A stretch of DNA of 55,527 nucleotides, taken from a virus. Its lineage: Duplodnaviria; Caudoviricetes. Location: IMG/VR virus record IMGVR_UViG_3300006929_000018, positions 1 through 55,527 of that record. One strand, given 5' to 3'. Both the position numbers and the translations under genes were made by a program. Below the pieces are notes generated by a model. That model saw only the letters and a list, made by a program, of their open reading frames with translations. It searched no databases and was not told the DNA's origin. This document shows positions 1 through 54,279 of this stretch, in pieces. The first letter of the stretch is position 1. Each line of letters starts with the position of its first letter.

Positions 1-31
1 CTAATAACTATTAACTATAAAATATACTATT

Positions 32-151: not shown

Positions 152-191
152 TCTCCTTTTTTACCTACGAATAGTCGTGCCTCCTTTCGGT

Positions 192-227
192 TCACATACT
201 TCGTATGCTCATTTTAATTTTATATAG
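192..227 (+). promoter_or_regulatory. putative early promoter P1 (hairpin + TATA motif)
   Basis: CATAC-TTC-GTATG at 195-207 (template C-GAA-G loop). TTTAATTTTA-TATA-G with TATA at 223-226, 22 nt from the loop centre. Confidence 0.55.
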
Positions 228-365
228 GTAATAATAACTGTTAGAGTATACACGAAAGTGCTTCGCATGCTAACTTACCTTTACCACAGGACATATTTAT
301 CTAAACTTACGAGCACACACACAACCTAACTTAGGTGCTTCAAGTAAAGAAAATGTCCTTTTTTT
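227..365 (+). ncRNA. candidate structured small RNA 1
   Basis: GGTAA/TTACC (227-231/275-279) and GTTAG/CTAAC (240-244/270-274). Long hairpin closed by AGGACAT/ATGTCCT (288-294/353-359) with ACTT/AAGT and GAGCAC/GTGCTT, then a T-run. No credible ORF. Confidence 0.45.
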
Positions 366-370
366 GCTTA

Positions 371-408
371 CGAAACGACTGCGTCTTTCGGTGTTATATT
401 ACATATAA
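371..408 (+). promoter_or_regulatory. putative early promoter P2
   Basis: CGAAA-c-GAC-TGC-GTC-TTTCG (template C-GCA-G loop). TTATATTACA-TATA-A with TATA at 404-407, spacing 23. Confidence 0.55.
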
Positions 409-430
409 CTATTAATCAATATATATTATT

Positions 431-502
431 ATGAAATATTACCAATCAGTTCAAAACTTTATCGTTAAAGTATACAATACATTGTATGTATATTATAACT
501 AA
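431..502 (+). CDS. possible 23-aa micro-ORF
   Basis: MKYYQSVQNFIVKVYNTLYVYYN directly after P2. Leader (TATTATG) resembles that of the ORF at 32. Confidence 0.35.
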   Translation: MKYYQSVQNFIVKVYNTLYVYYN

Positions 503-524
503 TTATTAACCTAAATTAAATATC

Positions 525-749
525 ATGTCAATACTTGGAATCGCATTCTTCACCGCTATAGGTTATTTTATTATAGTCTATAAATTATTAGGTAGAAAGA
601 AATTAGTTAAAACACAGTTACTGTGGGATATACTATTTACTATCGGTCTACCTATACTATTCATCGGTACATTCAGTGGACTAGCAACAGCTGTATTAGC
701 TGGAGTTATGTTCTCTGTATTCACATCATTACTACCAAAGGAGAGCTAG
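525..749 (+). CDS. small integral membrane protein
   Basis: 74 aa with 2-3 hydrophobic segments. Confidence 0.7.
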   Translation: MSILGIAFFTAIGYFIIVYKLLGRKKLVKTQLLWDILFTIGLPILFIGTFSGLATAVLAGVMFSVFTSLLPKES

Positions 750-760
750 ACTCTCTTTTT
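737..760 (+). terminator. intrinsic terminator
   Basis: GAGAG-CTAGA-CTCTC followed by TTTTT, overlapping the stop codon of 525-749. Confidence 0.65.
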
Positions 761-761
761 A

Positions 762-798
762 GAACTCACTTTGTTCGTTCAATTTATATTATCTATAG
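762..798 (+). promoter_or_regulatory. putative early promoter P3
   Basis: Template strand GAAC-GA-AC-AAA-GT-GA-GTTC (tandem GA mismatch, C-AAA-G loop). TTATATTATC-TATA-G with TATA at 794-797, spacing 23. Confidence 0.5.
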
Positions 799-960
799 AT
801 ATATGTGTGGCTAATAATACCAGAGTGATTAAGTAACTACGACTAAAACTCAAGCACAATATCCTTATAATATTATGGTTAATAATATATAGGTCGGAGC
901 AATATAATTCTAAATCACAAACCGTTCAGGTAGTTGATAATTATATTGTTCCTTCCTTTT
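798..960 (+). ncRNA. candidate structured small RNA 2
   Basis: Several stems, including the 14-bp GGAGCAATATAATT/AATTATATTGTTCC (896-909/939-952, one G-U), followed by TTCCTTTT. Confidence 0.4.
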
Positions 961-996
961 ACAACAAAATAAATGTATAACTTAAATTAAATAATT

Positions 997-1326
997 ATGA
1001 AACTAATTAGTATTCTGATAACAGCCGCGTTATTTATTAACGTAAATCACTATCAATCAAGACCTTACACTGACTGTATACCTGAAGCATGGTATGATGA
1101 CTTCAGCGACTTTGAGTATGAAAACAAAATAGATACAGTATTAATAGATACTGCATCTTCAGACACAACATTAATAGACACTACTCGCAATCCTTATCAC
1201 GATATAGATTGGGCAGCAGAGTTCGCTAAATTAGATGATAAATTAGATAGCATGGATATGAATATCAACGAATTAATTATCTATGAAATTGAAAACTATA
1301 ATGACACAATAAATAAAAATAAATAA
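997..1326 (+). CDS. acidic protein with N-terminal signal/TM segment
   Basis: Hydrophobic N-terminus, IDT repeats, Asp-rich. Confidence 0.65.
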   Translation: MKLISILITAALFINVNHYQSRPYTDCIPEAWYDDFSDFEYENKIDTVLIDTASSDTTLIDTTRNPYHDIDWAAEFAKLDDKLDSMDMNINELIIYEIENYNDTINKNK

Positions 1327-1328
1327 TT

Positions 1329-1523
1329 ATGAGCATAGATATAAGTATAAAGAAAATAGATACATATAATAAAATATTAGATGTTATAAACAGTAGTTCT
1401 ACAAAACATCATCAAGACGTAGCATATATAATGATAGAAAGATTCGGGAATTTATTCTTTGACGAATCACTTACAGAAATATTATTAGAAACAGCTAATA
1501 AAACATTTGGATATACAGATTAA
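1329..1523 (+). CDS. hypothetical protein
   Basis: 64-aa ORF tightly packed in the operon. Confidence 0.6.
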   Translation: MSIDISIKKIDTYNKILDVINSSSTKHHQDVAYIMIERFGNLFFDESLTEILLETANKTFGYTD

Positions 1524-1525
1524 CT

Positions 1526-1561
1526 AAGAACCCTTCGGGGTTCTTTTTTTGTTATATATAA
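1526..1561 (+). terminator. intrinsic terminator overlapping putative promoter P4
   Basis: AAGAACCC-TTCG-GGGTTCTT plus T-run. TTTTGTTATA-TATA-A with TATA at 1557-1560, 22 nt from the TTC centre. Confidence 0.75.
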
Positions 1562-1585
1562 GTATTAATTTAAAAATATAAAAAA

Positions 1586-1972
1586 ATGGCAAAAGCTAAA
1601 ACAGCAAAGAAAGCTACTAAAGTAGCAAAGACAGTAGAAGCAGAAACTACTAAAAACAAAGGACAATTAGTTCCTAACATCAAAATTACACCTCACACAT
1701 TTAAGAACGGGACAACTATTCTTAATATCAGTTGTAAATTACCAGACTTTATTGACTTCTTACAAAACAATAAAGTTGTAGGTAAAGACGGCAGCTCTTG
1801 GGTTAACATGAAGGGTTTACCATCTAGTTCTGGTGGATACACTGTTATACTAAATGACTACTTCCATGACGCACAACAACTTGCAGATGAAGTATTTGGT
1901 GCAGATGAACTTGACGTACAAGTTGAAGACTTTGAGTTAGAAAGTAGAAGACAAGAGAACAAAGTATCATAA
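1586..1972 (+). CDS. putative nucleic-acid-binding protein
   Basis: Lys/Ala-rich histone-like N-terminus, beta-rich core (DFIDFL...WVNM), acidic C-terminal region. Confidence 0.55.
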   Translation: MAKAKTAKKATKVAKTVEAETTKNKGQLVPNIKITPHTFKNGTTILNISCKLPDFIDFLQNNKVVGKDGSSWVNMKGLPSSSGGYTVILNDYFHDAQQLADEVFGADELDVQVEDFELESRRQENKVS

Positions 1973-1979
1973 TAATTAT

Positions 1980-2061
1980 AAAAGAGAGTATTATCGTTTA
2001 ACGAGCGTTACGTAGAAAATAGGATAAAGTCAACGCGCCTATCGGTTAACGCTCTCTTTTT
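1980..2061 (+). other. structured intergenic element ending in a U-tract
   Basis: AAAAGAGAG/CTCTCTTTT, GAGCGTTA/TAACGCTC, ATAGG/CCTAT. Confidence 0.5.
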
Positions 2062-2066
2062 GCTTT

Positions 2067-2102
2067 ACAAGTCTTTCAGACTTGTGTTTTTATTGCATAT
2101 AA
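2067..2102 (+). promoter_or_regulatory. putative early promoter P5
   Basis: ACAAGTCT-TTC-AGACTTGT (template GAA loop). TTTTATTGCA-TATA-A with TATA at 2098-2101, spacing 22. Confidence 0.55.
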
Positions 2103-2127
2103 CTTTTAACCCCTTAAATTTATATTT

Positions 2128-2493
2128 ATGAAAAACCAATTAGAACTAACTGATGATTACATCAAAAAATTGAAAACACTATTACGAATGAAAAAGATTA
2201 CTTCTTATGATGTAGCTCACGCTTCATTTAGAAAAGCAAATCAACACTGTATTATTAGCTCTACAGACAAAAGAACATTAACTATCACATTTATAAACGG
2301 TGATGTTAAGAAATTTCCTACAATTATATCCTTATTAAATGAAATTAAAATAATTAATAAATGGTATAAGTCTGCTAGAAGAAAGTATATCAAAAGATAT
2401 TATAAAGTAATAGGAAAATGGAATAACAGGCATAACAATAAAGCTCCTAAACAAGAGCAATTTAACGCCTTAATTGAAAAATATAATATATGA
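2128..2493 (+). CDS. basic hypothetical protein
   Basis: 121-aa Lys-rich ORF after P5. Confidence 0.65.
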   Translation: MKNQLELTDDYIKKLKTLLRMKKITSYDVAHASFRKANQHCIISSTDKRTLTITFINGDVKKFPTIISLLNEIKIINKWYKSARRKYIKRYYKVIGKWNNRHNNKAPKQEQFNALIEKYNI

Positions 2494-3223: not shown

Positions 3224-3224
3224 T

Positions 3225-4100: not shown

Positions 4101-4102
4101 TT

Positions 4103-4267: not shown

Positions 4268-4274
4268 TAATACA

Positions 4275-4350: not shown

Positions 4351-4373
4351 CTTATTATTCTAAAAACAAAATT

Positions 4374-5539: not shown

Positions 5540-5562
5540 TATTAATATTAAAAAAAATAATT

Positions 5563-6146: not shown

Positions 6147-6152
6147 TTATTT

Positions 6153-6185
6153 GGGGGTCTTTGACCCCCTTTTAATTTTTTATAG
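6153..6185 (+). terminator. intrinsic terminator ending the early region (possible P6-like element)
   Basis: GGGGGTC-TTT-GACCCCC + TTTT, followed by TTTAATTTTT-TATA-G (spacing 20). Confidence 0.75.
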
Positions 6186-25953: not shown

Positions 25954-28900
25954 TTATCTTATTATTGGTGATTCTTTTTCAGAACTACCACCATATATAA
26001 CTTTTCTAACTTCCTTATGTGTTTGACCAAATGGAGCTACTTCGTACTTTAATTCTGTTTCCCATTTTGGCGTTCCTTTCTCTGCTAGATAAGAATCTCT
26101 TTTTTGAGTTTCTCCACTTATAGCGTAATCTACAGTATTACCTATATTTTGAGCTGTTCCGAAAGACGTAGGTATTATTGTATAATTTATAAATCTGTCT
26201 ACATCCGTCATTACATTAATATCTTTATTTAACTTTTTTAAATGTCTTAAAACTATATCATCTTCACCATCATCGTCTAAAGCTAATATTAATAAAGAAA
26301 CTACACCAGCTAATCCTATACCCCTTATATAAGCTCCCATTTCTTTTTGTTGGTCCTCTCCAAGTTTGTCATATTCTTCTTTAAATGTAGCCATAGATAT
26401 ATCTCCATTAGTAAACCTACTCCATAAAGAAGATACATAACCACCAGCTGTTGTATAACTACCAGATTGAACTTCACCAAATCTATCTATATCACGCTGT
26501 TGGAATCTATCTCCCACCAATGTAAAATACCATTTTTTAAATTGTAAAGCAGCTCTACCTAAAGCGTAAGTACCCAACATTCTTCCGTCTAAAGCAGTGT
26601 ATCCCTCACCATGTAATGTAGATATTTTGTGATTTATCTGTCTAACTCTTTCTTGTGTAATTTCTCCTGAGCTATATTCTTCTTCTGTTAACATTCCCAA
26701 GAAAGCAGCTCCTTGTATATAATTTTCTGATTTATCCATAAAGAAAAACGACAATCTTTCTATCTTACCAAAAGCTCCTTTTTTATTATCTAAATGAACA
26801 AAATCACTAAAGCTATATTCTACTATTCTATGCTTTTTTAATATCTCTTGAGAATAGTTCCAATCTTGAAAATATCTTTTTTCTCCAACAACTAATTGTT
26901 TACCACCACGTTTACGGTACTCTTGATATTTACCAGCTAATATATTACCTACCGCGACCAACGGATTAAAACCTAAATATCTTAATGTAGTTAATCTAAC
27001 TAACCAATCTAATATCTTTTCTGCAGTATTAAGTTTTGGTCTTTTCTTTTCTAAGAAAGACTCTTTCCACCATCTTGTTAAATATTCGGCTGCATTTTTA
27101 TTACCATTTTCTTTATTAAACTGTATAATTGAATCTACTAACACCGACATGTTTTTCATTCCTACAAATGGATTTTCTTTTAGATTTATAGCATTACCAT
27201 AGTTATCTCTTTGTACGTCTCCATACTTAAATAAAGTACCTCTAATAAATTCTAATAGAGCTCCATTTAAATCCATAGACATGTGTTCAAATTCTGTAGC
27301 TTGTCTTCTTCTGTATTCTTCTATTAAAGCCTTGTCTGCTTCTGTAAGTTTGTCAGGAGATATTCCTTCTGCCATTTTTGATATAGCGTCACCGTCATTT
27401 AATAAGGCGTCTATTTCTGCGTCAGTTAAAACTATTTTACTACCGTCTTCATTTATACCCTGTTGTTTTAATTTCGTAGCTCTACGTTTCAGTTTTTCTA
27501 ATATAGCAGCGTTTGCTATTCTTTCTTTTGCTGTACCAGCACTTTTTAAGTATGTTCTTATGCTACTTAAAGACATTAGAACTTCTGTTCCGTTTATATC
27601 ATGATATAATTTAACATTTTCTACATTCATGTTTTTACCCATTCTCATATCATATAATCCAAATAATCCTTCTTTGCTAAACATTTCTAAATCACCCATC
27701 TGTATATTTTTTACAGCGTCTATTCTTTCTTGCCTTATAATGTTTCCAAACTTATCGTTCATTTCTCTATACAAATTCCAATAATCGTACTCTTCTTTAG
27801 TAATCTCACTTTTTTTATTTTTCATTTCTTCTGCAGAAATTAAAGTTATTCTACCTCCTTTTTCTCTATTGGTTATGTTACCATATAAAGTTTCATATCT
27901 TTCTGTCATATTCATTTGACCCTTTATCTTCTCTATAAGACCAATACCTTTAAGTTTAGATTCTATAAGTTTATCATGAGCTGCGTTTATTTCATTCGTA
28001 TACATTCTGTATCTAGATAAATAATTGTAGTAATTTTTTTCTATTTCATTTATCATATATTGTATCTCAGGTCTTCTAGATGTCATATTGTTAGACCCCA
28101 TCCATTTTCTTAACCATGATATATCTTCATTTTTAGAAGGCTTAACAAAATCATAGTTTTGTAAATCTGCTTTTTCTTGTAAATACTTTGTCTGTTTTTC
28201 AAATGCTCTTTGTGCTATTTCTTTTCTAATAATATGTTTAGCTCTATTAGTAGCAGAACTATCTAATCTATCTAACTTAGTCATAGCGTCATATAGATAT
28301 TCATCATCATGTTTTTGTAAAGATTCTAAATTTAATTTATCCGCTGTTAAATCTTCTGCTATTTCGTAATCTATTACATATTGAGAATACCTATCTTTTA
28401 ACCTTTTATAAATTAAACTATCTTTTTTGATAGAACCCATTGTAATACCCTTGTCTTCTACCCATTCTTTAAAAGATAATAAATCATTACTATCCATATA
28501 TTCTTTACCTTCACTTGTATATCTATTAAAAGCTTTTTTAGCTCTTTTAACTTCATCCGCAGCAGAAACATCCTGTATTTTATATATGTATATAGGTTTT
28601 TCTCCTTTTATAAAAGCTTTGTGATATTTATTTCCATTTTCTTTTATATCATCATAATTATCATATCCTTCACTACGAGCCCAAGAATCAAGATTTTTTA
28701 TGTCATCTATACTATTTCTTTTTATAGGAGGGCTAATACGTACCAGAGTATTTCCAGGTTTTATTAATTTAGTTATATCATTACCTGTATCATTATATGT
28801 ATTATAGCCATGACTAATAGTTTTTTTATTACCTGCTATTATAGCTTCTTCTTCTACAATATCTAGTGTCATTTTACCCACAACACCCTCTTCTTCTTTT

Positions 28901-31900
28901 ATTTGTTTACTTCTTTCTTCTAACTGTCTATCTATATTTATATCTCTTTGTTTTTCTTCCTGTATTCTTTCTTCTATTGATTCAATAAAACCTATAACAT
29001 CAACATTAGGACTTATTCTTTCTTGCATAGAATTTATAGTATTATCCATATATTGATTTATTTTACCTATAAACTTATCAGAAAATAAAGGAGATAAAGA
29101 ATCTTCTTTGAATCCAAATTCAAAAAACTTATATTCAATATTAAACATTAAAATTTGTTCTCTTTCTTTCAAATCATTAAATCCATTTCTCATTTGTTGT
29201 ATTTCTGATTCTGTAATAAATTCATTTAATAGTTGTTTATTTAAAACTACTTGTTCACGACCCTTACTATTTTTTACAATTTTCATAGATTTAAAAAACG
29301 TATTGTCTGGATTGGACTTCATAACCTTTTTTAATTCTTGTATTAATCTACTTTTAGTTAAATTAGGATATATAATATCTGTCATATTTTCTAACATTTT
29401 ATCAGATATTATTTTGTTGATTATTTTATTTTTTTGGTCCTTACTTTTGTATAGTAATCCTTTTTTATTATTATAAACTTCTTCCATTATGGACTGCATA
29501 TAAGGAGTGTATCTTATATCTGTTACAGAAGCTCTATTTAACATCGTTTCAAATAAACCTAAAGCGTGTGTCATAATAGGATTTTCAAAAAGTCCTCCCA
29601 TATTTCTTTTTTCGTCTCCTCTTATGTCATTAATCTTTTTTACTACACTCATCAATTCTAAAGGATTCTTTTCTATAGATTGATGTACTGTAAACGCTTT
29701 ACCTACAGGTTGAGCTACATCTTTATTAAATTGTTCTAAGTTATATATAAGACTTAATGTTTTGATTTGTTCTTTTGATAAAATAGCTTTTTCCCTCATT
29801 CCTTCTGCTTCAAATTCATCATATATAAATTCAACTGTCTCAGGAGATTGCTTGCTTAACCAATTAATAAAGTCTGAACTCTTTTTACCAGGTTTCTTTT
29901 TTGTTCCTAGTAATTGTTGTATAGTGGAATCAGAAGAAACAAATCTTTTACCATCTGTTGTTTTCTGCCATTGGAAATACTTTTGTACAATATCAGATGT
30001 GTATATATCTTTACATTCTTGTAAAGAATATCCTAATCTTCTAAGCATTACAAATCCTGCTACTGATTGTTCGTTTAGTCCTAGTCTTTCTGCATACTGC
30101 CATTTAGCGTTGTCTAATACTATATTAAGTAACTGAGCTAATCCAAACCAATTTCCTACTCCGTTTTCAGCGTTTCTATCGTCATAAAATTTATCCACTT
30201 TTCTTCCGTTAATATCTACTTCAAAACCTAGTTCTACGCCACTAACAGAAAATATATTCAAACTTCTTTGTAAAGCAGCTACAATACCTACAAGAGCTTT
30301 TGTAGGAACATTTTCTTTAAATGTTTTAGAATCTCCATGAGGAGTTAGTTGAGAGTCTGTTTTAGGTCTTTCTTTTCCAATTACCTTTTCTACATCTTTT
30401 TGAAAGTCTATATTTGCTGTAATTTCTTTTCTTACATCTTCTCTACTAACTAAGTCTACATATAAATCAAAAAATTCATTACTATCATTTCTCCAATCAT
30501 CAGATGATTTTATTTCATTTTTGTTGTATTTGAAGTTCATATGTACTGAGTCTCCATCTAAGTCAGCTCCCCAATATGCGGATACTTCGGCTGGTATGGT
30601 TATTTTAGACGTAGGACTTCCTTTTAATTGTCCATGAAATCCTTTTACTATAAATACACTTGTACTTACTTTACCATGCGAAGGTATTCTAGTTCCTAAA
30701 AATAAGTCACCTTCTTTAACTCCTTGTTTTTGTAAATAACCAGGCACGTAAGCTTCTGAAACTACAACCTTTTTACCATCTATAGTTCTTTCTTCAAAAG
30801 CTTTTAATCCCATCCCCAATGAAGACGATTGATAAGCTATACTCCCTTTTGTGTACATTTTAGTTCCTTTCTTAGCTACCCTACCATTAGCTATAGAATT
30901 GTACACAGAGTTCATTGCAGGGTATCTACCGTCTAGATTGCCAAATATTGAAGCAACTAACTGACCAAATACCGCTGGGTCAACAGAACCTTCAAATTTT
31001 TCCATTTCTTTAAATACATCTTTAGTTTTGGCGTCAGGAGAAGTAATCATACCTTCATCTAAATTTCTTTCTTTGTTAGCTTTTTCCATTACATTTTTAC
31101 GAAGCTCTAACATTCTATTTAGAATTTCAAAGTCTTTAGGACTATTCATATTGTTTGCTAAATTGTAAAACAATTGTGACGGAAAATATCTTTCTTCTTT
31201 TTGTTTGTCTAACTCTAATTGTATACCTAATCCCTTTCCACTTAAACCATTAAACTCCCTGTTTATATCATTTTCTTCACCTATCATAAACAGTTCATCC
31301 TGACTTTTTAATATATTGTCTAAATTCTCTTTATTTAAATTCCTAACATCATATATATATTTGCTGCCTTTTTTTCCGTTAATTCCATCAAACCAAAGTT
31401 TAGCTGAAGATTCAGAAGCAGCTATTACTAAGTGACCATGAGAAAACATATCAACATATTCTAAATTTGGTATAGTAGCAGCGGCTATACTTGTGTTTCT
31501 TTCTCTTAATATATTCGCTATGTTTTTATGTATTTCACTTGTAGCTTCCATATCAGGAGTTAACACTTGTACAGCAAATTTTAGATACGTAGTATTACCA
31601 TCTTCTCCTCTATAATTATATACAAACTTATATACACCTCCTACATCTTTAACTCCACCATATTTTTCTGTAATTATTTTTGCTTGTTGTGGTAATATGT
31701 ACCCCGCTGCATCATTCTCTATCCAAGCTTCCACTCCTTTAGGTATTTCGTTTTCTGTATATATATTACCTTCTTTATCTACATAATAATCTTTTGTAAT
31801 AACAGGTTCAAATGATGTTGTGTGGTCGTATGTTGTATGAGAAGCAATAGTACCAGCTAATCTTTTTATATAATCTACTTCATCCTTCGCTTGTTTGTGG

Positions 31901-34900
31901 TCATACCCTAACAACTGTTGAGCCATAAATTTATTAGCTATATAACTTGTTAAAAAATTCTTACGCTGCTCTACTGTACTGTTATTCCAAGATGTATTGT
32001 TTTCTAACAAATCAGGATTTTTAAAAAGTTCTAATAGAAATTTATCATATATTTTATCTATTTCTTTAATTTTATAATTACCCTGTTTATCTTTTATAAC
32101 AGTATAAGGAAAAACCTTGTCTCCTTTTATATATTTGTCTTTTAACGCTGGATTATTATATAATGTTCCTAAAACTTTATTTCTACTAACTACATCTGTT
32201 ATAGCTATAGATTTAACATAATATCTTCTACTTTTATCAGAAAATGTTCCAATTACTTGGTCGTATAATACCGACTCTCCTGCTTTTGATTTTTGCACAG
32301 CATTAAGATAATTATACATATCTATAGTCATCATTTCCGCTGGGTCTATTTGTGTCATAGTTTTAGCTCCGTTGTCCCATCTTTCTACACTATCTTGACC
32401 TGGATAATATCTATACATACCAGAATGAACAGTTATGTCAAATGGATTATCCATTATATCTCCAGTTTGACCACCTATTAATATATCCGCCTCATATTTC
32501 TCTTGTATCATTAATGAAAAAATATTATTTTTTGGGTTGAATATACTTTTCTTTCTTTTGTCTATATTTAATATTTTTTCTACCGAATCATAAGCTTGGT
32601 TATGTAGAGCGTTATTATTATTAAATATACTAATACCGTCACCTGTTACGTTGTCTACAATAGACAAATAGTTCATAGGTCTAGACAACACTAATACTTC
32701 ACTTAAAACTTGTTTAAAAGATTGCAAATTGTTTTCAAAATAATCATAAGCTTTTGCCCTTTCGTTTACTTTAGTTGTCCATTTTTCTGTATTTTTATTA
32801 AACAACATAAACTTACTATTTTTAAGACTTATTCCTTGTAACCCTGATTGTCTTTCAAAAAATACATCAGTTAAATACATAGGCTTTCCATTCCATATTA
32901 TAGTTTCGTTTAATATAGCGTCTATATCTATTCTTTCAAATCCGTCTGTATTTTTAAATAATGTTTCTATTATAGCTACTACACCATCATTTTTAGAAAT
33001 TGAACTAAAATTATTTTCACTTACTTTATTATATATATTTTCTATCTCTGCTCTTTTTTGTTGTTTTTCCGCTTCTGTAGAATTAGTCCAACTGTCTATC
33101 ATTCTAGTTATAACACTTTGTTCTGTTGTTCTGCTTAATAAAACCCTATCTTGCCACAAATATTCTCCAGTATCTTTGATAAGTAATCTATCTCCCTGTA
33201 ATCTTTCAATTACCATACTTTGAAATATATTAGATATTTGTAATAATTTAGCGTCTGTATAGTTTTGATTTTCAAATACTTTATTATCTAATATAGATAA
33301 CATTTGCTGTATTTCAACAGAGTTACTTTCTCTAACCATTCGTATAAAATCTTCTGGATTTCTTTTAACGGATTTAGCTAAACTATATAATTGATACATT
33401 AATTTTTTTCTTTCAAAAGGAGATTCAGATTTTACATTATATATTTCCGCTACAGCTTTGAAAAAATTAGTTAAAGTTTTAGGCATATTCATGTTCTTTA
33501 ACTCTTCGTTATGTAAATCCGCTTGATTTAAATCTGTCTCATCGTTAAGCTCCTCCTCTTCAAATTGTATCATTAATTGTTTACCTTCCTCGGTTTCTAA
33601 TCCTATTCCTTTTTCTTTTACTATAGCTTCCAATAATAATTTATCACTATTAGCTAAATTCTTTTTATATTTAGGATTAGTCGTATATAATACCGCTCGT
33701 ATATATTGTTTTAATTGTTCTATCTTTTTATCTTCTAGAGATTCTGAATTTATTAATCCAGATTTATTTATTCTTTTTATTACATTATCCACTATTTGTT
33801 CGTCTTCCAAACCTTTGCCTAATTCATAATTTAAAAACGTATGAACTAACGCATATTCTGTAGCTTTTCTAAACGCTGCTTTTTTAGCTCTTTTTATTTC
33901 TCCATAACCTGAGTTTTTGATAACACCTTTTTTACCGAAGTTTAAGAGTACGTGTTTCATTGCAGCTTCTAATGTAAGGGTAGGTAATACATCGTCTACT
34001 TTATTTAAAAATTCCCTAGCTTCTTCATCCGTAGCAAGGTTTTTAGTTTCTTTATAAAATTTAACTAAATCTTCTTCTAATTGTTTTTGTACTTTACTGT
34101 CTTTTATAATTGCGTTTAACGAACCATAACTATTAGCTTCTAATGACCTTACGAAAGATTCTTCCAGTAAGTGTTTCTGTTTCAAATTGCTTAATTTTTT
34201 AGCTATAGCTCCACCCCTTCTTTTAGTAGTAAGTTGTGTAATAAGAGACACATATAACTCTGATGTTTTTGTATCGTCTACACCTTCATTTTTTACAATA
34301 TTTGTTATAATATCTTTTATATCACTTTGTATGTTATTGTTGTTATTTATAATACCTTTCTGTAATTCTACGAAAGTTCCTACTGTCATTACAGTTCCGT
34401 CTATATCAATTAATGTTAATTCTGGATATTGTATAGAAGTTAAATCAAATATATCTGACTTTACTAAAAGTTTGTTAATTCTTTTGATTAATGGTGATTC
34501 CTCTTGCATTCTATACCAAACGTGACCACCTTCATGTATTATATCTGTGCCTACTGTACCACCTTCTTTTATAAGTAATGTACTACCTATAGCTAATGAA
34601 ACAGCTTCATTTCCAAAAGCATCTAAAAGTTGCCCACTAATTACATACGCTTGGTCTGCTGGTATTAGATTTTTTTCTAATAGTTTTTGCAGCATAACAT
34701 ATTCTCCTAACCCAGCGTTTGTATATACTTCATGGTTTCTTCTAGGTACAGCTCCATCATATTTTTTGAATGTATTATCTTCACTAGGCTTAGTTATCTT
34801 ATCTTTTATTTTAGATTTAATTTTTTTAAAACCTGATACAATCTTTTCTTTTGTTTCTTTGACTTTTTCTTTTACTGTTGTAGTTTTCTTAGCTCTTGTT

Positions 34901-37809
34901 ATTTGCTCGTCTTTAACATCATAATCCCTATATTCAATAGTACCTATTACTTGTCCATCTACTTCAGCTACCATTTTATATTGGTATAAATCATTATTGA
35001 ATTGAAAAAATAATTGTCCGTCTATTTTAATTACATCTTTTCCACCTTCTTTTGGTAAAATTAATTTTATTTTGACTGGTATATTATCTTGATTTATATA
35101 TCTAGCTAAGAAATTATTTATAGTTTCGTTACCTACTTTACCCTCTCTATTGTAGAATTTTATTTTACTACCTTTACTATCTGTAATAGTATAACTACTA
35201 CCTCCTTTTGTAGGTACAATAGATTTAGCTCCTACTATAATTTCACCACCTTTTTTAGCTATAGTTTCGGCTAATTTTTTTACTTTTTCTAATATTGGAA
35301 TTTTTTTACGAACCTTTTCAGACTTAGGTTCTTCAGGTAATTTTAATTGTTTTTGTTCAGTTTCTGCTTTTTTTTTACCTGTATCTTGCTTTGATGACCA
35401 GTCTGCCCAAGACTCTGTTATAGTTCCGTCTTGTTTTCCTTTAAGATATTCTTCTGCTTTTTTATAAACGTCAGGTGTAACTCCAGCCATACCTTTCATT
35501 TTCTTTTTCAGTTCATTAAAAGCTCTTTTTATTTGTTGTGGAGTTTTTGATTTCTTTAGTATTCTTTCAGTTCTATCTACAGCGTCAGATACATTTTTTT
35601 CAACAACTTTTGTTCTTTTTCCTGTTAAATCTTGTACCGCTTCTACTCCTTTTTTACCTACACTTTTTACCGTTTTAACTCCCTTTTTAGCCACTCCTTT
35701 TATGGCGTCAATAGCTTTACCTAAAAATCCTTTAGAGTCTTGTTCTTTTTGATATTGTTTATATTCCTGTACAGTCATGCCAGCTTCTTTAGCTTGTTTA
35801 GCTGTCATTCTTTCTTGACCTTTTTGTGTGTATTGTTCGTACTCTTCTGATGTAAGTCTTTCTTTATATCTTTTGTCTACCTTTCCTTCTTTTGTTAAAA
35901 TTTCTTCTTTTTGTAAATAAAAATTTTCTATTTCGTTTTTAAGTTTTTTTTCTTCAACTTGTAATTCATTTAGAGCAGATTTCTCTTCATTATTTATTTT
36001 GTTAATAACAGATTGTTGTTTTTCTTTAGAAACATTTTGTTTTACCTTTTTTCTTTTTTCTTCATAGATTGACTTTACTTGTTCTTGTTGTGAATTATTT
36101 CTTGTTAATCTATTTTCTCTGTAAAAAACCTGTTTTGCTCCAGATTCAGTAAGAGTTGTGTTAACAGAATGTTTATCATAATTTTCTACCATTCTGTCTA
36201 TAGTCTTAAAAATATTGTCTCTACCTTCTTCTGTTAACTTTCCTTCTTCTACTTGTTTTTCTATAACTCCTTTCATAACAGTTCCATCACCATTATGATT
36301 CCACACGTGGTCCGCAACTAATTCATCAGATAGATTTTGATAATCTCTCATTACTTCTGGATTGTATGTTCCGTCTTCGTTTAGTAATCTTAACTGTTCT
36401 GTTTTTTGTAATTTTTCATCTAACATTTTAGACCTCTCTGCTTGAGCATCTACAGCTCCTCTAGTACCACCCATTGCCGCTCCTAAACCTACAGATGTCC
36501 AGAATATATCTCTAGCTTCTTTTGTAAATGTACCGTCAGCATTTGTTATCCAGTCTGTATAAGATTCGTAATCTTTACCTTGTTCTTCTTGTAAGTTTGC
36601 GTATTTTATCCATTCTTGATATGTTTCTTGTAATCCTTCTGTATATCCCTCTACACCCGCATAAGCTCCCGCTGTAGGTAATACAGTCCCAGCTCTTCCT
36701 AATAATGGTTTTATGATACCAGCTATACTTTTGCTAAATCCTGCTGGTTCTGGACTAAGTCTAGCTATTTTACTCATTTTAAAGTTTTTACCAAGGCCTC
36801 CAAATAATATACCATATTGCACAACATCTAACGCAGCCCATTTGGCATTATCCCAAACAACTCCACTAGCAGCATTTGCAGCTTGTTCTTTACTTAATCC
36901 CATTTTTATACCCTGACTATATGTTTCTCCTCCTAAGTAAGCTCCTTCAAATAAATTGGCTGTTATACCCCCTCCAATTGCTCCTGTCCATCTTTCAGCT
37001 CCTTTTGTTAGTACCATTCCTTTTTTACCAGCATCTATTGCGATATGTTTAGCTAGTCCACTTCCTCCTACTCTGTTAGTACCATATAATAATTTTGCAA
37101 CTTTAGAACCCTGTTGTGTTGTAGCAACCATTCTTCCTGCTTGACCTATTCTTCCTGTCTTAGCTAATCCTATAAGTGCTCTACCCCCAAATCTAGTAGC
37201 AGCAAAAGCTCCACCTCCATACGGTATCATAAATGAAGCCGCGTATGGTAATAACCTAGCAACTTTATGTGACCAAAATTCTGCCTTAAACATATCTGTA
37301 AATGTAAGGTCTTGTAAATCTTCTGATACAATTAATAAATTTTCATTTTGAAACTCTTGGCCTTTTTTCTTTAACCATTCTCCCACTGATGTATTAGGGT
37401 CTGGGTCATTAGGACTTACTAAAGCAGATAGATAATCTATTGTATCTCCTGTTCCATACACTAAATCTCCCCATCCCGCTCTTAAGGCTCTACCTGTGTC
37501 TGATACAAAATCACCCATAACTGCATCAGGGTCGGTCATATATAAACTTCCTGTTTCTACGTCACCTCTCATAGGGTCTACTAAACCTTGTGTAAGGTTT
37601 TCTCTCATTTGACCTTGAGCAACGCTTCTATAATAGTTGTCTATATTTTGTTGTTGTTGCACTTCTTGTTCACTAGGACCTAGTAAACTTTGAAATATTT
37701 CTGATGTACTCTGTGCGTTGTCATATCCCTGTATAGCTTCTGATGGTAATTGTACATTTGGGTCTAAATCACCACTAGGTAAATATGTTTCTTCGTATTT
37801 TTCAGCCAT
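25954..37809 (-). CDS. giant virion RNA polymerase polyprotein (crAss-like two-barrel RNAP)
   Basis: GADLDGD (DLDGD at 30550-30564), upstream RIPSHG, NDAAGYI, YKFVY, YLKFA and ESSAK motifs; HEGGH zincin motif at 34522-34536. Confidence 0.88.
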   Translation of the reverse strand: MAEKYEETYLPSGDLDPNVQLPSEAIQGYDNAQSTSEIFQSLLGPSEQEVQQQQNIDNYYRSVAQGQMRENLTQGLVDPMRGDVETGSLYMTDPDAVMGDFVSDTGRALRAGWGDLVYGTGDTIDYLSALVSPNDPDPNTSVGEWLKKKGQEFQNENLLIVSEDLQDLTFTDMFKAEFWSHKVARLLPYAASFMIPYGGGAFAATRFGGRALIGLAKTGRIGQAGRMVATTQQGSKVAKLLYGTNRVGGSGLAKHIAIDAGKKGMVLTKGAERWTGAIGGGITANLFEGAYLGGETYSQGIKMGLSKEQAANAASGVVWDNAKWAALDVVQYGILFGGLGKNFKMSKIARLSPEPAGFSKSIAGIIKPLLGRAGTVLPTAGAYAGVEGYTEGLQETYQEWIKYANLQEEQGKDYESYTDWITNADGTFTKEARDIFWTSVGLGAAMGGTRGAVDAQAERSKMLDEKLQKTEQLRLLNEDGTYNPEVMRDYQNLSDELVADHVWNHNGDGTVMKGVIEKQVEEGKLTEEGRDNIFKTIDRMVENYDKHSVNTTLTESGAKQVFYRENRLTRNNSQQEQVKSIYEEKRKKVKQNVSKEKQQSVINKINNEEKSALNELQVEEKKLKNEIENFYLQKEEILTKEGKVDKRYKERLTSEEYEQYTQKGQERMTAKQAKEAGMTVQEYKQYQKEQDSKGFLGKAIDAIKGVAKKGVKTVKSVGKKGVEAVQDLTGKRTKVVEKNVSDAVDRTERILKKSKTPQQIKRAFNELKKKMKGMAGVTPDVYKKAEEYLKGKQDGTITESWADWSSKQDTGKKKAETEQKQLKLPEEPKSEKVRKKIPILEKVKKLAETIAKKGGEIIVGAKSIVPTKGGSSYTITDSKGSKIKFYNREGKVGNETINNFLARYINQDNIPVKIKLILPKEGGKDVIKIDGQLFFQFNNDLYQYKMVAEVDGQVIGTIEYRDYDVKDEQITRAKKTTTVKEKVKETKEKIVSGFKKIKSKIKDKITKPSEDNTFKKYDGAVPRRNHEVYTNAGLGEYVMLQKLLEKNLIPADQAYVISGQLLDAFGNEAVSLAIGSTLLIKEGGTVGTDIIHEGGHVWYRMQEESPLIKRINKLLVKSDIFDLTSIQYPELTLIDIDGTVMTVGTFVELQKGIINNNNNIQSDIKDIITNIVKNEGVDDTKTSELYVSLITQLTTKRRGGAIAKKLSNLKQKHLLEESFVRSLEANSYGSLNAIIKDSKVQKQLEEDLVKFYKETKNLATDEEAREFLNKVDDVLPTLTLEAAMKHVLLNFGKKGVIKNSGYGEIKRAKKAAFRKATEYALVHTFLNYELGKGLEDEQIVDNVIKRINKSGLINSESLEDKKIEQLKQYIRAVLYTTNPKYKKNLANSDKLLLEAIVKEKGIGLETEEGKQLMIQFEEEELNDETDLNQADLHNEELKNMNMPKTLTNFFKAVAEIYNVKSESPFERKKLMYQLYSLAKSVKRNPEDFIRMVRESNSVEIQQMLSILDNKVFENQNYTDAKLLQISNIFQSMVIERLQGDRLLIKDTGEYLWQDRVLLSRTTEQSVITRMIDSWTNSTEAEKQQKRAEIENIYNKVSENNFSSISKNDGVVAIIETLFKNTDGFERIDIDAILNETIIWNGKPMYLTDVFFERQSGLQGISLKNSKFMLFNKNTEKWTTKVNERAKAYDYFENNLQSFKQVLSEVLVLSRPMNYLSIVDNVTGDGISIFNNNNALHNQAYDSVEKILNIDKRKKSIFNPKNNIFSLMIQEKYEADILIGGQTGDIMDNPFDITVHSGMYRYYPGQDSVERWDNGAKTMTQIDPAEMMTIDMYNYLNAVQKSKAGESVLYDQVIGTFSDKSRRYYVKSIAITDVVSRNKVLGTLYNNPALKDKYIKGDKVFPYTVIKDKQGNYKIKEIDKIYDKFLLELFKNPDLLENNTSWNNSTVEQRKNFLTSYIANKFMAQQLLGYDHKQAKDEVDYIKRLAGTIASHTTYDHTTSFEPVITKDYYVDKEGNIYTENEIPKGVEAWIENDAAGYILPQQAKIITEKYGGVKDVGGVYKFVYNYRGEDGNTTYLKFAVQVLTPDMEATSEIHKNIANILRERNTSIAAATIPNLEYVDMFSHGHLVIAASESSAKLWFDGINGKKGSKYIYDVRNLNKENLDNILKSQDELFMIGEENDINREFNGLSGKGLGIQLELDKQKEERYFPSQLFYNLANNMNSPKDFEILNRMLELRKNVMEKANKERNLDEGMITSPDAKTKDVFKEMEKFEGSVDPAVFGQLVASIFGNLDGRYPAMNSVYNSIANGRVAKKGTKMYTKGSIAYQSSSLGMGLKAFEERTIDGKKVVVSEAYVPGYLQKQGVKEGDLFLGTRIPSHGKVSTSVFIVKGFHGQLKGSPTSKITIPAEVSAYWGADLDGDSVHMNFKYNKNEIKSSDDWRNDSNEFFDLYVDLVSREDVRKEITANIDFQKDVEKVIGKERPKTDSQLTPHGDSKTFKENVPTKALVGIVAALQRSLNIFSVSGVELGFEVDINGRKVDKFYDDRNAENGVGNWFGLAQLLNIVLDNAKWQYAERLGLNEQSVAGFVMLRRLGYSLQECKDIYTSDIVQKYFQWQKTTDGKRFVSSDSTIQQLLGTKKKPGKKSSDFINWLSKQSPETVEFIYDEFEAEGMREKAILSKEQIKTLSLIYNLEQFNKDVAQPVGKAFTVHQSIEKNPLELMSVVKKINDIRGDEKRNMGGLFENPIMTHALGLFETMLNRASVTDIRYTPYMQSIMEEVYNNKKGLLYKSKDQKNKIINKIISDKMLENMTDIIYPNLTKSRLIQELKKVMKSNPDNTFFKSMKIVKNSKGREQVVLNKQLLNEFITESEIQQMRNGFNDLKEREQILMFNIEYKFFEFGFKEDSLSPLFSDKFIGKINQYMDNTINSMQERISPNVDVIGFIESIEERIQEEKQRDINIDRQLEERSKQIKEEEGVVGKMTLDIVEEEAIIAGNKKTISHGYNTYNDTGNDITKLIKPGNTLVRISPPIKRNSIDDIKNLDSWARSEGYDNYDDIKENGNKYHKAFIKGEKPIYIYKIQDVSAADEVKRAKKAFNRYTSEGKEYMDSNDLLSFKEWVEDKGITMGSIKKDSLIYKRLKDRYSQYVIDYEIAEDLTADKLNLESLQKHDDEYLYDAMTKLDRLDSSATNRAKHIIRKEIAQRAFEKQTKYLQEKADLQNYDFVKPSKNEDISWLRKWMGSNNMTSRRPEIQYMINEIEKNYYNYLSRYRMYTNEINAAHDKLIESKLKGIGLIEKIKGQMNMTERYETLYGNITNREKGGRITLISAEEMKNKKSEITKEEYDYWNLYREMNDKFGNIIRQERIDAVKNIQMGDLEMFSKEGLFGLYDMRMGKNMNVENVKLYHDINGTEVLMSLSSIRTYLKSAGTAKERIANAAILEKLKRRATKLKQQGINEDGSKIVLTDAEIDALLNDGDAISKMAEGISPDKLTEADKALIEEYRRRQATEFEHMSMDLNGALLEFIRGTLFKYGDVQRDNYGNAINLKENPFVGMKNMSVLVDSIIQFNKENGNKNAAEYLTRWWKESFLEKKRPKLNTAEKILDWLVRLTTLRYLGFNPLVAVGNILAGKYQEYRKRGGKQLVVGEKRYFQDWNYSQEILKKHRIVEYSFSDFVHLDNKKGAFGKIERLSFFFMDKSENYIQGAAFLGMLTEEEYSSGEITQERVRQINHKISTLHGEGYTALDGRMLGTYALGRAALQFKKWYFTLVGDRFQQRDIDRFGEVQSGSYTTAGGYVSSLWSRFTNGDISMATFKEEYDKLGEDQQKEMGAYIRGIGLAGVVSLLILALDDDGEDDIVLRHLKKLNKDINVMTDVDRFINYTIIPTSFGTAQNIGNTVDYAISGETQKRDSYLAEKGTPKWETELKYEVAPFGQTHKEVRKVIYGGSSEKESPIIR

Positions 37810-54267: not shown

Positions 54268-54279
54268 TTTACAAAATTA
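54268..54279 (-). promoter_or_regulatory. -7 promoter element TAATTTTGTAAA
   Basis: TAnnTTTG upstream of 54255. Confidence 0.5.

What the first reader, a model, noticed from the sequence alone, without database searches (positions are those of the whole stretch)
192..2102. Repeated hairpin + TATA elements at fixed spacing: candidate promoters for the virion RNA polymerase
Seen: five intergenic elements combine a hairpin with TTWWRTTDYM-TATA-R. The template-strand loops are GAA, GCA, AAA, GAA and GAA, centred at 201, 381, 771, 1535 and 2076. TATA starts at 223, 404, 794, 1557 and 2098, giving spacings of 22, 23, 23, 22 and 22 nt. Stem sequences differ while loop type and spacing hold. Two stems have tandem GA/GA mismatches on the template strand. 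Each element follows or overlaps a T-tract, so each unit is separately punctuated. A weaker sixth copy lies before dnaB (6153-6185, spacing 20). Known: C-GNA-G triloops are unusually stable DNA mini-hairpins, and N4 virion RNAP recognises such template-strand hairpins. N4 uses an unrelated single-subunit enzyme, whereas this genome encodes a two-barrel vRNAP. Inference: this is a structure-plus-sequence promoter code for a crAss-like vRNAP. P4 also reads as an ordinary terminator.
Basis: partly seen in the sequence, partly recalled or inferred. Interest (0 to 1): 0.9.

Follow-up and report, generated by a model that had tools for sequence, protein, structure and literature searches.

The report
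Hairpin-plus-box early promoters, crAss-like phage
An uncultured marine crAss-like phage heads each of its first short rightward gene units with the same 15-base AT-rich box placed 21-24 bases after a small DNA hairpin, which makes a testable candidate for the still-undefined start signal of the RNA polymerase these phages inject.

Summary
All five elements sit at the stated coordinates, with hairpin loop centres 22-23 nt before TATA.

From the window alone the linear box is not significant. An unbiased motif search scores it below shuffled intergenic DNA, and two of the five hairpins are weak by DNA energies.

Related contigs carry the case:
- In 34 related loci the box scores 122 times on the early-gene strand and 0 times on the other.
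- 60 of 70 distinct copies have a hairpin centred 20.5-24.5 nt before TATA, against 17.5±3.4 in shuffles.
- Orthologous promoters carry unrelated stems at the same spacing, and some stem changes are compensatory.
- A covarying ~75-nt RNA begins at the last base of the box.

Late operons carry host-type TAnnTTTG boxes instead. The 3951-aa protein folds like the phi14:2 virion RNA polymerase.

Best reading: phage-specific early promoters, probably for the injected polymerase. The hairpin is a likely but unproven component, and in E4 and E5 it also reads as an ordinary terminator.

This scan has noted similar hairpin-plus-box arrays in other crAss-like genomes.

The parts
1..7 (+). 3' end of a further box copy cut by the contig start. 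The full copy is TTCTATTACTAATAA, preceded by the hairpin GTCACtgcGTTCC, in the near-identical relative L005 at 3282-3296. It heads the 39-codon ORF at 32-151.
168..227 (+). E1. It consists of a degenerate CGAA...TTCGG box (168-190, inner GTCGtgcCTCC at 174-184), the hairpin CATAC-ttc-GTATG (195-207, loop centre 201) and the box TTTAATTTTATATAG (213-227).
   Evidence: Template-strand DNA fold -2.1 kcal/mol, z -3.2.
289..365 (+). Small structured RNA with its T-run terminator, expressed from E1. In 22 of 27 related loci its first G is the last base of the box. In this window a 61-nt insert (228-288) separates the two.
371..408 (+). E2. It consists of a bipartite hairpin CGAAA-c-GAC tgc GTC-TTTCG (371-390, loop centre 381) and the box TTATATTACATATAA (394-408). 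It lies after the RNA's own terminator T-run (359-365).
   Evidence: Template-strand DNA fold z -1.4.
741..798 (+). E3. It consists of a separate terminator GAGAGctagaCTCTC with T5 (741-760), the hairpin GAAC-TC-AC ttt GT-TC-GTTC with a tandem TC/TC mismatch (762-780, loop centre 771) and the box TTATATTATCTATAG (784-798).
   Evidence: The fold is not better than shuffles (z -0.04). In relatives only the loop varies (TTT, TGC, TTC).
1526..1561 (+). E4. It consists of a terminator-type hairpin AAGAACCC ttcg GGGTTCTT (1526-1545) whose T-run runs into the box TTTTGTTATATATAA (1547-1561).
   Evidence: z -4.6
2066..2102 (+). E5. It consists of the hairpin ACAAGTCT ttc AGACTTGT (2067-2085, loop centre 2076) and the box TTTTATTGCATATAA (2088-2102). 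It heads the long operon that starts at 2128.
   Evidence: z -4.3. Orthologues carry other hairpin types.
6153..6185 (+). Weak sixth copy before dnaB. It consists of the terminator hairpin GGGGGTC ttt GACCCCC and TTTAATTTTTTATAG (one mismatch to the pattern, spacing 20). The block is nearly invariant in 12 distinct relatives and shows no covariation. Its function is uncertain.
25954..37809 (-). 3951-aa virion RNA polymerase candidate with DLDGD at residue 2416. This is the enzyme proposed to read the elements.
54272..54279 (-). Host-type TAnnTTTG box (TAATTTTG) 24 nt before a late-operon start. Similar boxes lie at 25939-25946 (-), 16917-16924 (-) and 7652-7659 (+). They serve as the contrast class.

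Best explanation
These are phage-specific early promoters at the head of an array of short, individually terminated transcription units. The array begins at the point where the late and early arms diverge. The signal has two parts.

The first part is a 15-nt AT-rich box, consensus TTAYRTTAYATATAR. Transcription is inferred to start at or next to the final R.

The second part is a short inverted repeat whose loop centre lies 21-24 nt before TATA. On the template strand it can form a mini-hairpin with a G-N-A or AAA triloop.

The most likely reader is the injected two-barrel virion RNA polymerase. The proposed mechanism runs as follows. After ejection, supercoiling extrudes the hairpin in its AT-rich setting. 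This gives a polymerase that handles single-stranded DNA well, but duplex DNA poorly, a fixed structural landmark and an opening next to the easily melted box.

In some units (E4, E5) the same hairpin with its T-run also ends the preceding transcript.

Shown: the sequence anatomy, its strand and position specificity, conservation, stem turnover at fixed spacing, the contrast with host-type boxes, and the fold of the polymerase. Inferred: the start site, the identity of the polymerase, hairpin extrusion, and any role of the hairpin in initiation.
For: (1) Placement. The five elements, plus a sixth cut by the contig start, occupy the large intergenic gaps of the first 2.1 kb. The rest of the genome is tightly packed.

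(2) Specificity. A matrix built from 12 distinct sites scores >=12 bits 122 times on the early-gene strand and 0 times on the other strand in 34 related loci (310,061 bases). In the window the hits are the 5 early sites plus one intragenic hit at 29746.

(3) Hairpin association. 60 of 70 distinct copies have a hairpin centred 20.5-24.5 nt before TATA. I dropped the intragenic hit before this count; it passes the loose rule at 20.5 nt. Shuffled upstream DNA gives 17.5±3.4 with a maximum of 26 in 200 shuffles. Random window positions give 27%. Neighbouring 4-nt distance bins hold 0 to 33.

(4) Stem turnover. There are 23 distinct hairpins, which I group by eye into about 8 stem families.
- The orthologous promoter of the small RNA carries either CATAC/GTATG (spacing 22) or GAACC/GGTTC (spacing 24).
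- The orthologous E5 promoter carries three hairpin types.
- Double changes keep pairing: GTCAC/GTTCC to GTCGC/GCTCC, GAC/GTC to GGAC/GTCC, GTCG/CTCC to GGAC/GTCC, and GAACCC/GGGTTC to GAGCCC/GGGCTC or GAACTC/GAGTTC.

(5) Register. In 25 distinct loop-anchored hairpins the closing pair is Watson-Crick in 25 of 25 and the next pair in 22 of 25. Partners slid by 1-2 columns give 2-14 of 25.

(6) Strand clue.
- Loops are T-N-C in 18 of 25, TTT in 6 and GTT in 1.
- Of the 30 non-Watson-Crick cells I counted at stem positions 2-5, 28 are C/T or T/C on the top strand. On the template strand these are G·A pairs.
- By recall, not tested here, G·A pairs stabilise DNA, while the U/C mismatches they would make in an RNA stem do not.

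(7) Not merely terminators.
- E1-E3 each follow a separate terminator, and the terminator scan did not flag their own hairpins.
- The first promoter of the array has no rightward unit upstream but still carries the hairpin box.

(8) Start site. A 72-nt RNA is present as 16 distinct sequences. Its outer stem GGACAU/AUGUCC is invariant and its inner stem covaries. It begins at the final G of the box in 22 of 27 loci that were anchored on the RNA, not on the box.

(9) Reader.
- Host-type TAnnTTTG boxes lie 24-38 nt before late and middle operon starts and are absent from the early array.
- Residues 1750-2750 of the 3951-aa protein fold like phi14:2 gp66: 6VR4, E 4.4e-21, TM 0.65, followed by QDE-1 and RDR2.
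- For phi14:2 the preprint reports that early genes are read by the injected, rifampicin-resistant enzyme, which transcribes ssDNA well and dsDNA weakly (passages).
Against: - No transcript data could be obtained, so no start site or polymerase is shown.
- In the window alone the box is not distinguishable from AT-rich background.
- E2 and E3 hairpins are weak by DNA energies.
- E4, E5 and the sixth copy are ordinary terminator-like hairpins. In that class the fixed spacing follows simply from the terminator T-run being the T-rich start of the box.
- Every hairpin is followed by T-rich sequence, because the box itself is T-rich. A purely RNA-level terminator role therefore cannot be excluded.
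- 10 of 70 copies have only 2-3 Watson-Crick pairs plus a tandem mismatch.
- The lineage of L021 has TATT for TATA, has lost E2 and has one hairpin at 28 nt.
- A second-tier relative (L184) heads its early units with a different box and no separate hairpin obvious by eye. My matrix finds one hit >=12 in 15 such loci, lying far from the early region.
- In phi14:2, the only tested system, the authors found no common motif upstream of early transcripts. I found no similar element in its first 12 kb.
- The related copies share ancestry, so the counts are not independent events.
Confidence: 0.5

Rival explanations
1. The box alone is the promoter. The hairpins are only intrinsic terminators, insulators or 3'-end stabilisers of the preceding short transcripts and act as RNA. 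The fixed spacing arises because units are packed so tightly that the terminator's U-tract is the T-rich start of the next box.
For: - E4, E5 and the sixth copy are flagged as terminator-like.
- In the E4 class, stems covary as terminators do and the T-run merges into the box.
- In L134 a plain terminator hairpin sits at the usual distance, where other genomes have a terminator plus a second hairpin.
- The box begins with TT and is T-rich, so every hairpin is followed by U-rich RNA.
- The second-tier relative L184 shows boxes directly after T-runs with no extra hairpin (by eye).
Against: - E1, E2 and E3 already have their own stronger terminator with a T5-T7 run a few bases upstream, and their second hairpin lacks a T-run.
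- The first promoter of the array carries the hairpin box with no rightward unit upstream of it.
- Conserved tandem TC/TC mismatches would weaken an RNA stem but give G·A pairs on the template DNA strand.
- The loops are T-N-C rather than typical stable RNA loops, except the UUCG loop of E4.
Confidence: 0.27
2. The elements are immediate-early promoters read by the host RNA polymerase, with its primary sigma factor, an alternative sigma factor or a phage-modified form. The virion polymerase would have another task or other targets.
For: - Many phages use host polymerase for their first genes (general knowledge).
- The box is AT-rich and a loose sigma-70-type scan finds a 9-of-12 match at 398-427.
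- The phi14:2 authors found no motif for vRNAP-made early transcripts.
Against: - The box lacks the TAnnTTTG element that precedes the late and middle operons of this same genome. That this element is the Bacteroidota consensus is recalled.
- Sigma-70-type matches in 1-8000 are no more frequent than in shuffles (62 against 52.9±6.8).
- The phage carries a phi14:2-like virion RNAP, whose known job in phi14:2 is early transcription.
Confidence: 0.13
3. The elements are not promoters. The repeated modules would be RNA processing sites, replication or packaging repeats, or recombination hot spots that shuffle early gene cassettes.
For: - Contig ends of several assemblies fall inside the repeated modules: the window start, the L036 end, the L014 start and the L134 start.
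- Relatives differ by whole cassettes between modules.
Against: - Contig breaks at repeats of about 40-50 bp are expected from assembly.
- Each module sits upstream of a gene or RNA in one orientation only, follows a terminator, and abuts the 5' end of a structured RNA.
Confidence: 0.05

Closest known systems
Early promoters P1-P3 of coliphage N4 (Schitoviridae), read by the injected virion RNA polymerase (review PMC4496689, passages read)
   Same: - Both are clusters of promoters for the first genes of a phage that carries its own polymerase in the virion.
- Both have a short inverted repeat with a 3-nt loop.
- In N4 the template-strand loop needs a 5'G and 3'A with a G:C closing pair. Here 18 of 25 distinct loops are G-N-A on the template strand and 20 of 25 closing pairs are C-G.
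- In both, variable stem bases are kept paired.
   Different: - The enzyme is unrelated: T7-like single-subunit in N4, two-barrel here.
- The N4 hairpin is centred at -11 and is itself the conserved core. Here the loop centre lies 21-24 nt before TATA, and a 15-nt linear box lies between hairpin and inferred start.
- Stems here are often weak, and some double as terminators.
- Dependence on gyrase and SSB is untested here.
AT-rich pre-early promoters of Thermus phage P23-45, assigned to its tape-measure-fused two-barrel virion RNAP gp96 (PMC10770324, passages read)
   Same: A virion-delivered two-barrel RNAP is paired with a short, strongly conserved AT-rich linear motif upstream of the first transcription units. 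A different promoter class serves later genes. P23-45-type RNAPs also appear among the fold matches.
   Different: No hairpin is mentioned in that paper; the word occurs 0 times. I did not see the motif itself, which is shown only in figures, so sequence likeness is untested. The phage, host phylum and polymerase architecture differ.
Early transcription of Cellulophaga phage phi14:2 by gp66 (bioRxiv 10.1101/2020.03.07.982082, passages read)
   Same: It has the closest solved relative of the polymerase (6VR4). Early genes form a rightward block with long, highly transcribed non-coding stretches. Middle and late genes use host-type promoters.
   Different: The authors report no detectable common motif upstream of early transcripts. 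I found no copy of this box in an intergenic region and no strict C-TNC-G hairpin in its first 12 kb. I could not see its supplementary table of mapped 5' ends.
T7-group single-subunit RNAP promoters (recalled, not tested)
   Same: Both are compact linear promoters of about 15-20 nt that end in TATA directly before a purine start.
   Different: No T7-like RNAP gene was seen in the window or in the 7 kb beyond its left end. The likeness is one of form only.

Membership tests
N4-type hairpin promoters of virion RNAP | Template-strand DNA hairpin with a 3-nt loop that has 5'G and 3'A, and a G:C closing pair (PMC4496689; the 5-7 bp stem length is recalled). | tested here: inconclusive
   Window: E1 is C-GAA-G with 5 bp. 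E2 is C-GCA-G with 3 bp, a bulge and 5 more bp. E3 is C-AAA-G with a tandem mismatch. E4 has a 4-nt loop. E5 is T-GAA-A with 8 bp. Only E1 passes a strict rule. Family-wide, 18 of 25 distinct loops are G-N-A on the template strand.
N4-type hairpin promoters of virion RNAP | Hairpin centred at -11, with the conserved block spanning -17 to +1. | tested here: not met
   The loop centre lies 21-24 nt before TATA, so about 25-28 nt before the inferred start, and a separate linear box lies between them.
N4-type hairpin promoters of virion RNAP | Read by a T7-like single-subunit virion RNAP. | tested here: not met
   The candidate enzyme folds like phi14:2 gp66, QDE-1 and RDR2, which are two-barrel polymerases.
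N4-type hairpin promoters of virion RNAP | Hairpin extrusion driven by supercoiling and activation by host SSB. | not testable with these tools
   This needs probing of supercoiled DNA and in vitro transcription.
Early promoters of crAss-like two-barrel virion RNAP (no consensus in print) | The genome encodes a gp66-like virion RNAP within a crassvirus structural module. | tested here: met
   Structural module: crAss_MUZ E 1.7e-110 and CrAss_Ring_1 E 4.7e-23. Polymerase: tblastn to crAss001-like 'putative RNA polymerase' E 9e-6 across the DLDGD motif, and fold match to 6VR4 E 4.4e-21.
Early promoters of crAss-like two-barrel virion RNAP (no consensus in print) | The elements head the first transcription units of the early arm, on the sense strand only. 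| tested here: met
Early promoters of crAss-like two-barrel virion RNAP (no consensus in print) | Rifampicin-resistant transcripts start at the element. | not testable with these tools
   No RNA run was listed and no cultured host is known.
Intrinsic (factor-independent) terminators | G+C-rich stem-loop directly followed by a T-run. | tested here: inconclusive
   Met by E4 (1526-1545), E5 (2066-2086) and the sixth copy (6153-6169). The hairpins of E1, E2 and E3 were not flagged.
Bacteroidota primary-sigma promoters (consensus recalled: TTTG near -33, TAnnTTTG near -7) | A TAnnTTTG element a short distance before the start. | tested here: not met
   There is no intergenic TAnnTTTG in the early array. 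Such elements lie before late and middle operons at 54279(-), 25946(-), 16924(-) and 7652(+).

The most novel reading that the evidence does not exclude
crAss-like two-barrel virion RNA polymerases recognise a bipartite promoter. One part is an extruded template-strand G-N-A mini-hairpin, which serves as a structural landmark and opening. The other is a lineage-specific linear box that sets the start about 26 nt downstream. This would be a convergent reinvention of the N4 solution by an unrelated enzyme. It would also explain why no shared linear motif was found in phi14:2, and why this scan keeps meeting hairpin-plus-box arrays with different boxes in other crAss-like genomes (unchecked notes).
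Probability: 0.35. Interest if true: 0.85.

Novelty: new variant of a known kind. Interest (0 to 1): 0.72.

Why it matters
The promoter of the polymerase that crAss-like phages inject is still undefined. The only experimental study I could read found no common motif. Searches of the held literature found no later definition.

This array gives concrete short templates for testing:
- a box,
- hairpins of several natural stem types at one spacing,
- natural loop variants,
- natural copies with weak or replaced hairpins.

It also suggests how an enzyme that prefers single-stranded DNA could begin on an injected duplex. If the hairpin matters, two unrelated virion polymerases would have converged on the same DNA structure.

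Tried and rejected
- RNA evidence: no RNA holder was listed for window 1-2400, so no reads were laid.
- Rfam (E<=1) gave only a sub-threshold plastid match at 891-961. ARAGORN found no tRNA.
- Megablast of 1-6200 against phage records found no match.
- Sequence-only identification of the 3951-aa protein failed. The single-sequence PDB search gave 0 hits. The profile PDB search gave only low-complexity hits. PHROGs and Pfam gave 0 families. The fold search settled the question.
- The de novo motif search in the window alone did not recover the TATA box. It recovered a C-rich ...CTTTCGG motif, which is the 3' arm of the outer stems (13.44 bits, z 4.4).
- The short core TTACATATAR with one mismatch is not enriched (34 against 37.9 expected).
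- A strict C-TNC-G rule with a perfect stem of at least 4 bp finds only E1 in the window and nothing in phi14:2 1-9600.
- phi14:2's first 12 kb has no intergenic copy of the box.
- The viral-contig pattern scan added one new related contig among 18 stretches. The rest were chance hits or contigs I already held.
- Second-tier relatives reached through the terminase gave one matrix hit >=12 in 15 loci, far from the early region. A box seen by eye in L184 recurs in only three of 79 loci (L184, L183, L221), so I made no statistics on it.
- The more distant DnaB group (L016-L019) shows no array in the DNA held.
- I considered an operator-palindrome reading for a dimeric regulator and rejected it, because the inner stems differ in sequence while staying complementary.
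I did not see the phi14:2 table of mapped 5' ends or its promoter file, which may bear on the comparison.

Full report
WHAT IS THERE

The window is the whole held contig. Genes run rightward from 1 to about 14,050 and leftward from there to the end. Packing is tight, and nearly all large intergenic gaps lie in the first 2.1 kb.

Each copy is preceded by an inverted repeat whose loop centre lies 22, 23, 23, 22 and 22 nt before TATA. The stated loops, coordinates and T-runs are correct.

The window in fact begins inside a sixth copy. In the near-identical relative L005, the box TTCTATTACTAATAA with its hairpin spans the window's first seven bases. A further copy lies 520 nt upstream, right after the point where the leftward late arm and the rightward early arm diverge.

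IS IT MORE THAN CHANCE

Taken alone, the window does not prove the linear box. The pattern was fitted to the five sites. A de novo search of the 1,012 intergenic bases gives it 10.49 bits, below the best motif found in shuffled intergenic DNA (11.68±0.40 in 60 shuffles).

The hairpins are uneven. On the template strand, DNA folding gives z = -3.2, -1.4, -0.04, -4.6 and -4.3 for E1 to E5. Under a strict N4-like rule only E1 qualifies.

The co-occurrence is still unusual. All 5 of 5 sites have a triloop hairpin of score >=3 centred 21-25 nt before TATA. The same test succeeds at 12% of random positions and 19% of intergenic positions.

RELATIVES

A DnaB-based scan of viral contigs gave loci with 60-79% DnaB identity. 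An ncRNA-anchored scan of metagenome contigs gave 113 matches, of which 27 are relatives.

A matrix built from 12 distinct sites scores >=12 bits 122 times on the early-gene strand and never on the other strand in 34 loci (310,061 bases). These hits make up 71 distinct 80-nt contexts. Well-covered genomes have 5-7 such sites within about 3 kb.

Of 70 distinct contexts, 60 have a hairpin centred 20.5-24.5 nt before TATA. The one intragenic hit, W 29746, was dropped before this count. Shuffled upstream DNA gives 17.5±3.4. The bins at 12.5-16.5 and 16.5-20.5 nt hold 1 and 0.

The ten exceptions all belong to two conserved boxes, GTCAC-tNc-GTTCC and GTCG-tNc-CTCC. Each has 2-3 Watson-Crick pairs around a tandem TC/TC mismatch.

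These copies share ancestry, so the counts are not independent events. The stronger point is stem turnover at a fixed place:
- I count 23 distinct hairpins, which I group by eye into about eight stem families.
- The orthologous promoter of the small RNA carries two unrelated hairpins.
- The orthologous E5 promoter carries three hairpin types.
- Several double changes keep pairing.

In a loop-anchored register the closing pair is Watson-Crick in 25 of 25 distinct hairpins and the next pair in 22 of 25. Slid partners give 2-14 of 25.

WHICH STRAND, DNA OR RNA

Loops are T-N-C in 18 of 25 distinct hairpins, TTT in 6 and GTT in 1. On the template strand that is mostly C-(G-N-A)-G. This is the loop and closing pair that N4 promoters need for extrusion and stability (PMC4496689, passages).

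Of the 30 non-Watson-Crick cells I counted at stem positions 2-5, 28 are pyrimidine-pyrimidine C/T on the top strand. On the template strand these are tandem G·A pairs. By recall, these stabilise DNA, whereas the U/C mismatches they would form in RNA do not. The families with this feature are probably paralogous, so I count it as two or three origins, not 28.

E1, E2 and E3 each lie just after a separate, stronger terminator with a T5-T7 run, and the terminator scan did not flag their own hairpins. The first promoter of the array has the hairpin box although nothing rightward lies upstream of it. These points favour a DNA-level, promoter-linked role.

Against this, E4, E5 and the copy before dnaB are plain terminator-like hairpins whose T-run runs into the box. 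The E4 class covaries as terminators do. In L134 a plain terminator occupies the usual distance.

WHERE TRANSCRIPTION STARTS

I anchored a metagenome scan on the RNA downstream of E1 and not on the box. Among the 27 related loci, 22 have the box directly abutting the RNA, with the final G of TATAG (or TATTG) as the first base of the RNA's terminal helix. The other five, including this window's lineage, have an insert between them.

The RNA has 16 distinct sequences. Its outer stem GGACAU/AUGUCC is invariant. Its inner stem covaries among AGCAC/GUGCU, GGCAG/CUGCU and AACAC/GUGUU. A U-run follows. This is indirect but fair evidence that the start lies at or beside the final R.

WHO READS IT

Late and middle operons are preceded by TAnnTTTG(TA) boxes 24-38 nt before their start codons. 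These lie at 54279-, 25946-, 16924- and 7652+, and also at the leftward operon in L005. No such box lies in the early array. That this element is the Bacteroidota primary-sigma consensus is recalled, not tested.

Sigma-70-type matches are no more frequent than in shuffles. No T7-like polymerase gene was seen in the window or in the 7 kb beyond its left end. That stretch holds a lysozyme-domain protein and the large terminase.

The genome is crassvirus-like: the muzzle protein matches at E 1.7e-110 and ring protein 1 at E 4.7e-23. Its 3951-aa protein carries DLDGD at residue 2416. It matches crAss001-type 'putative RNA polymerase' across that motif.

I folded residues 1750-2750 with an alignment of 31 homologues. 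The model has pLDDT 80 and pTM 0.77. Its best PDB match is the phi14:2 virion RNAP 6VR4 (E 4.4e-21, TM 0.65), followed by QDE-1 and RDR2.

In phi14:2 that enzyme makes the early, rifampicin-resistant transcripts. It transcribes single-stranded DNA well and duplex DNA weakly (preprint, passages). Assigning the boxes to the virion polymerase is therefore an inference from exclusion and analogy.

LIMITS AND COUNTER-EVIDENCE

- The phi14:2 authors found no common motif upstream of early transcripts. I found no copy of this box in an intergenic region and no strict hairpin in its first 12 kb.
- The L021 lineage has TATT for TATA at the RNA promoter, a degraded box at two sites, no E2, and one hairpin at 28 nt.
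- Second-tier relatives (terminase 80-84% identical) give one matrix hit >=12 in 15 loci, far from the early region. One of them, L184, heads five early units with a different AT-rich box directly after T-runs, with no separate hairpin that I could see (by eye).
- The box is therefore lineage-specific and the hairpin is not universal.
- The sixth copy before dnaB is nearly invariant in 12 distinct relatives, shows no covariation and scores poorly on the matrix. I leave its role open.

COMPARISON WITH WHAT IS KNOWN

The closest working analogue is the N4 early promoter. The two share the loop type, the closing pair and the maintenance of pairing. They differ in the enzyme, the geometry and the presence of a linear box, so this is not a member of that family.

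The closest analogue by enzyme type is the AT-rich pre-early promoter assigned to the two-barrel virion RNAP of P23-45 (passages). That paper does not mention a hairpin.

My searches of the held literature found no defined promoter for a crAss-like virion RNAP. A 2026 N4 paper still treats crassvirus ejection and polymerase biology as open (passages).

Earlier notes of this scan describe hairpin-plus-box arrays with other boxes in several other crAss-like genomes. I did not test those notes and do not count them as evidence, but they show that the theme recurs.

VERDICT

These are most likely phage-specific early promoters; I put promoters of some kind at about 0.85. They are probably read by the injected two-barrel polymerase (about 0.6). 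The hairpin is a plausible but unproven structural part of the signal (about 0.5), and in some units it also serves as a terminator. I give the whole statement a confidence of 0.5.

Noticed in passing
window 289-365 (+): A small structured RNA of about 72 nt plus a U-run lies downstream of E1. It has no Rfam match. It is found in 27 metagenome loci as 16 distinct sequences. The outer stem GGACAU/AUGUCC is invariant and the inner stem covaries (AGCAC/GUGCU, GGCAG/CUGCU, AACAC/GUGUU), around an unpaired ACACACA stretch. Its function is unknown.
   Followed up: partly
window 228-288 (+): A 61-nt insert lies between the E1 box and the RNA. It is absent from 22 of 27 related loci. Four other loci carry an insert of different sequence at the same place (about 100 nt where measured), with the promoter and hairpin further upstream.
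   Followed up: partly
window 1-7; L036 end; L014 start; L134 start: Several assemblies break inside the repeated promoter modules. This window starts at the ninth base of a box copy. The likely cause is assembly breaking at repeats of about 40-50 bp, not a genome end.
   Followed up: partly
window 54272-54279(-), 25939-25946(-), 16917-16924(-), 7652-7659(+): TAnnTTTG(TA) boxes lie 24-38 nt before late and middle operon starts. TANNTTTGTA occurs 17 times in the window against 9.7 expected. This points to a Bacteroidota host and to host-polymerase transcription of the later genes.
   Followed up: partly
window 168-190, 371-390, 1530-1540, 2033-2047: The best de novo intergenic motif in the window is ...C..CTTTCGG (13.44 bits, z 4.4). 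It is the 3' arm of the outer CGAA/TTCG stems and also occurs in the structure upstream of E5.
   Followed up: partly
window 1980-2061 (+): A long GAGAG...CTCTC-closed structure with a T-run lies upstream of E5. It is conserved in L001 and L020 but replaced in L008 and L021.
   Followed up: no
L184 (rc of 3700-6700): A relative with a terminase 83% identical heads five early units with a different box, TTT-ACTATTNTTAYTAA, directly after T-runs. This suggests that each lineage has its own early box.
   Followed up: partly
L042 (phi14:2) about 4470-4500: A T-arm-like GGGGGTTCGAATCCCCC lies inside the long, highly transcribed early intergenic region of phi14:2. Seen by eye only.
   Followed up: no
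window 25954-37809 (-): The 3951-aa polymerase protein has 57 homologues of 2,269-4,081 aa, in tiers of about 67-83%, 41-48% and 30-32% identity plus one at 26%. They lie on contigs of up to 105 kb. None has a Pfam domain on record.
   Followed up: partly
L028 7209-12731: Beyond the window's left end lie a leftward 819-aa protein with a lysozyme-like domain, a 176-aa ORF and the large terminase. The contig therefore lacks at least 7 kb of the genome.
   Followed up: partly
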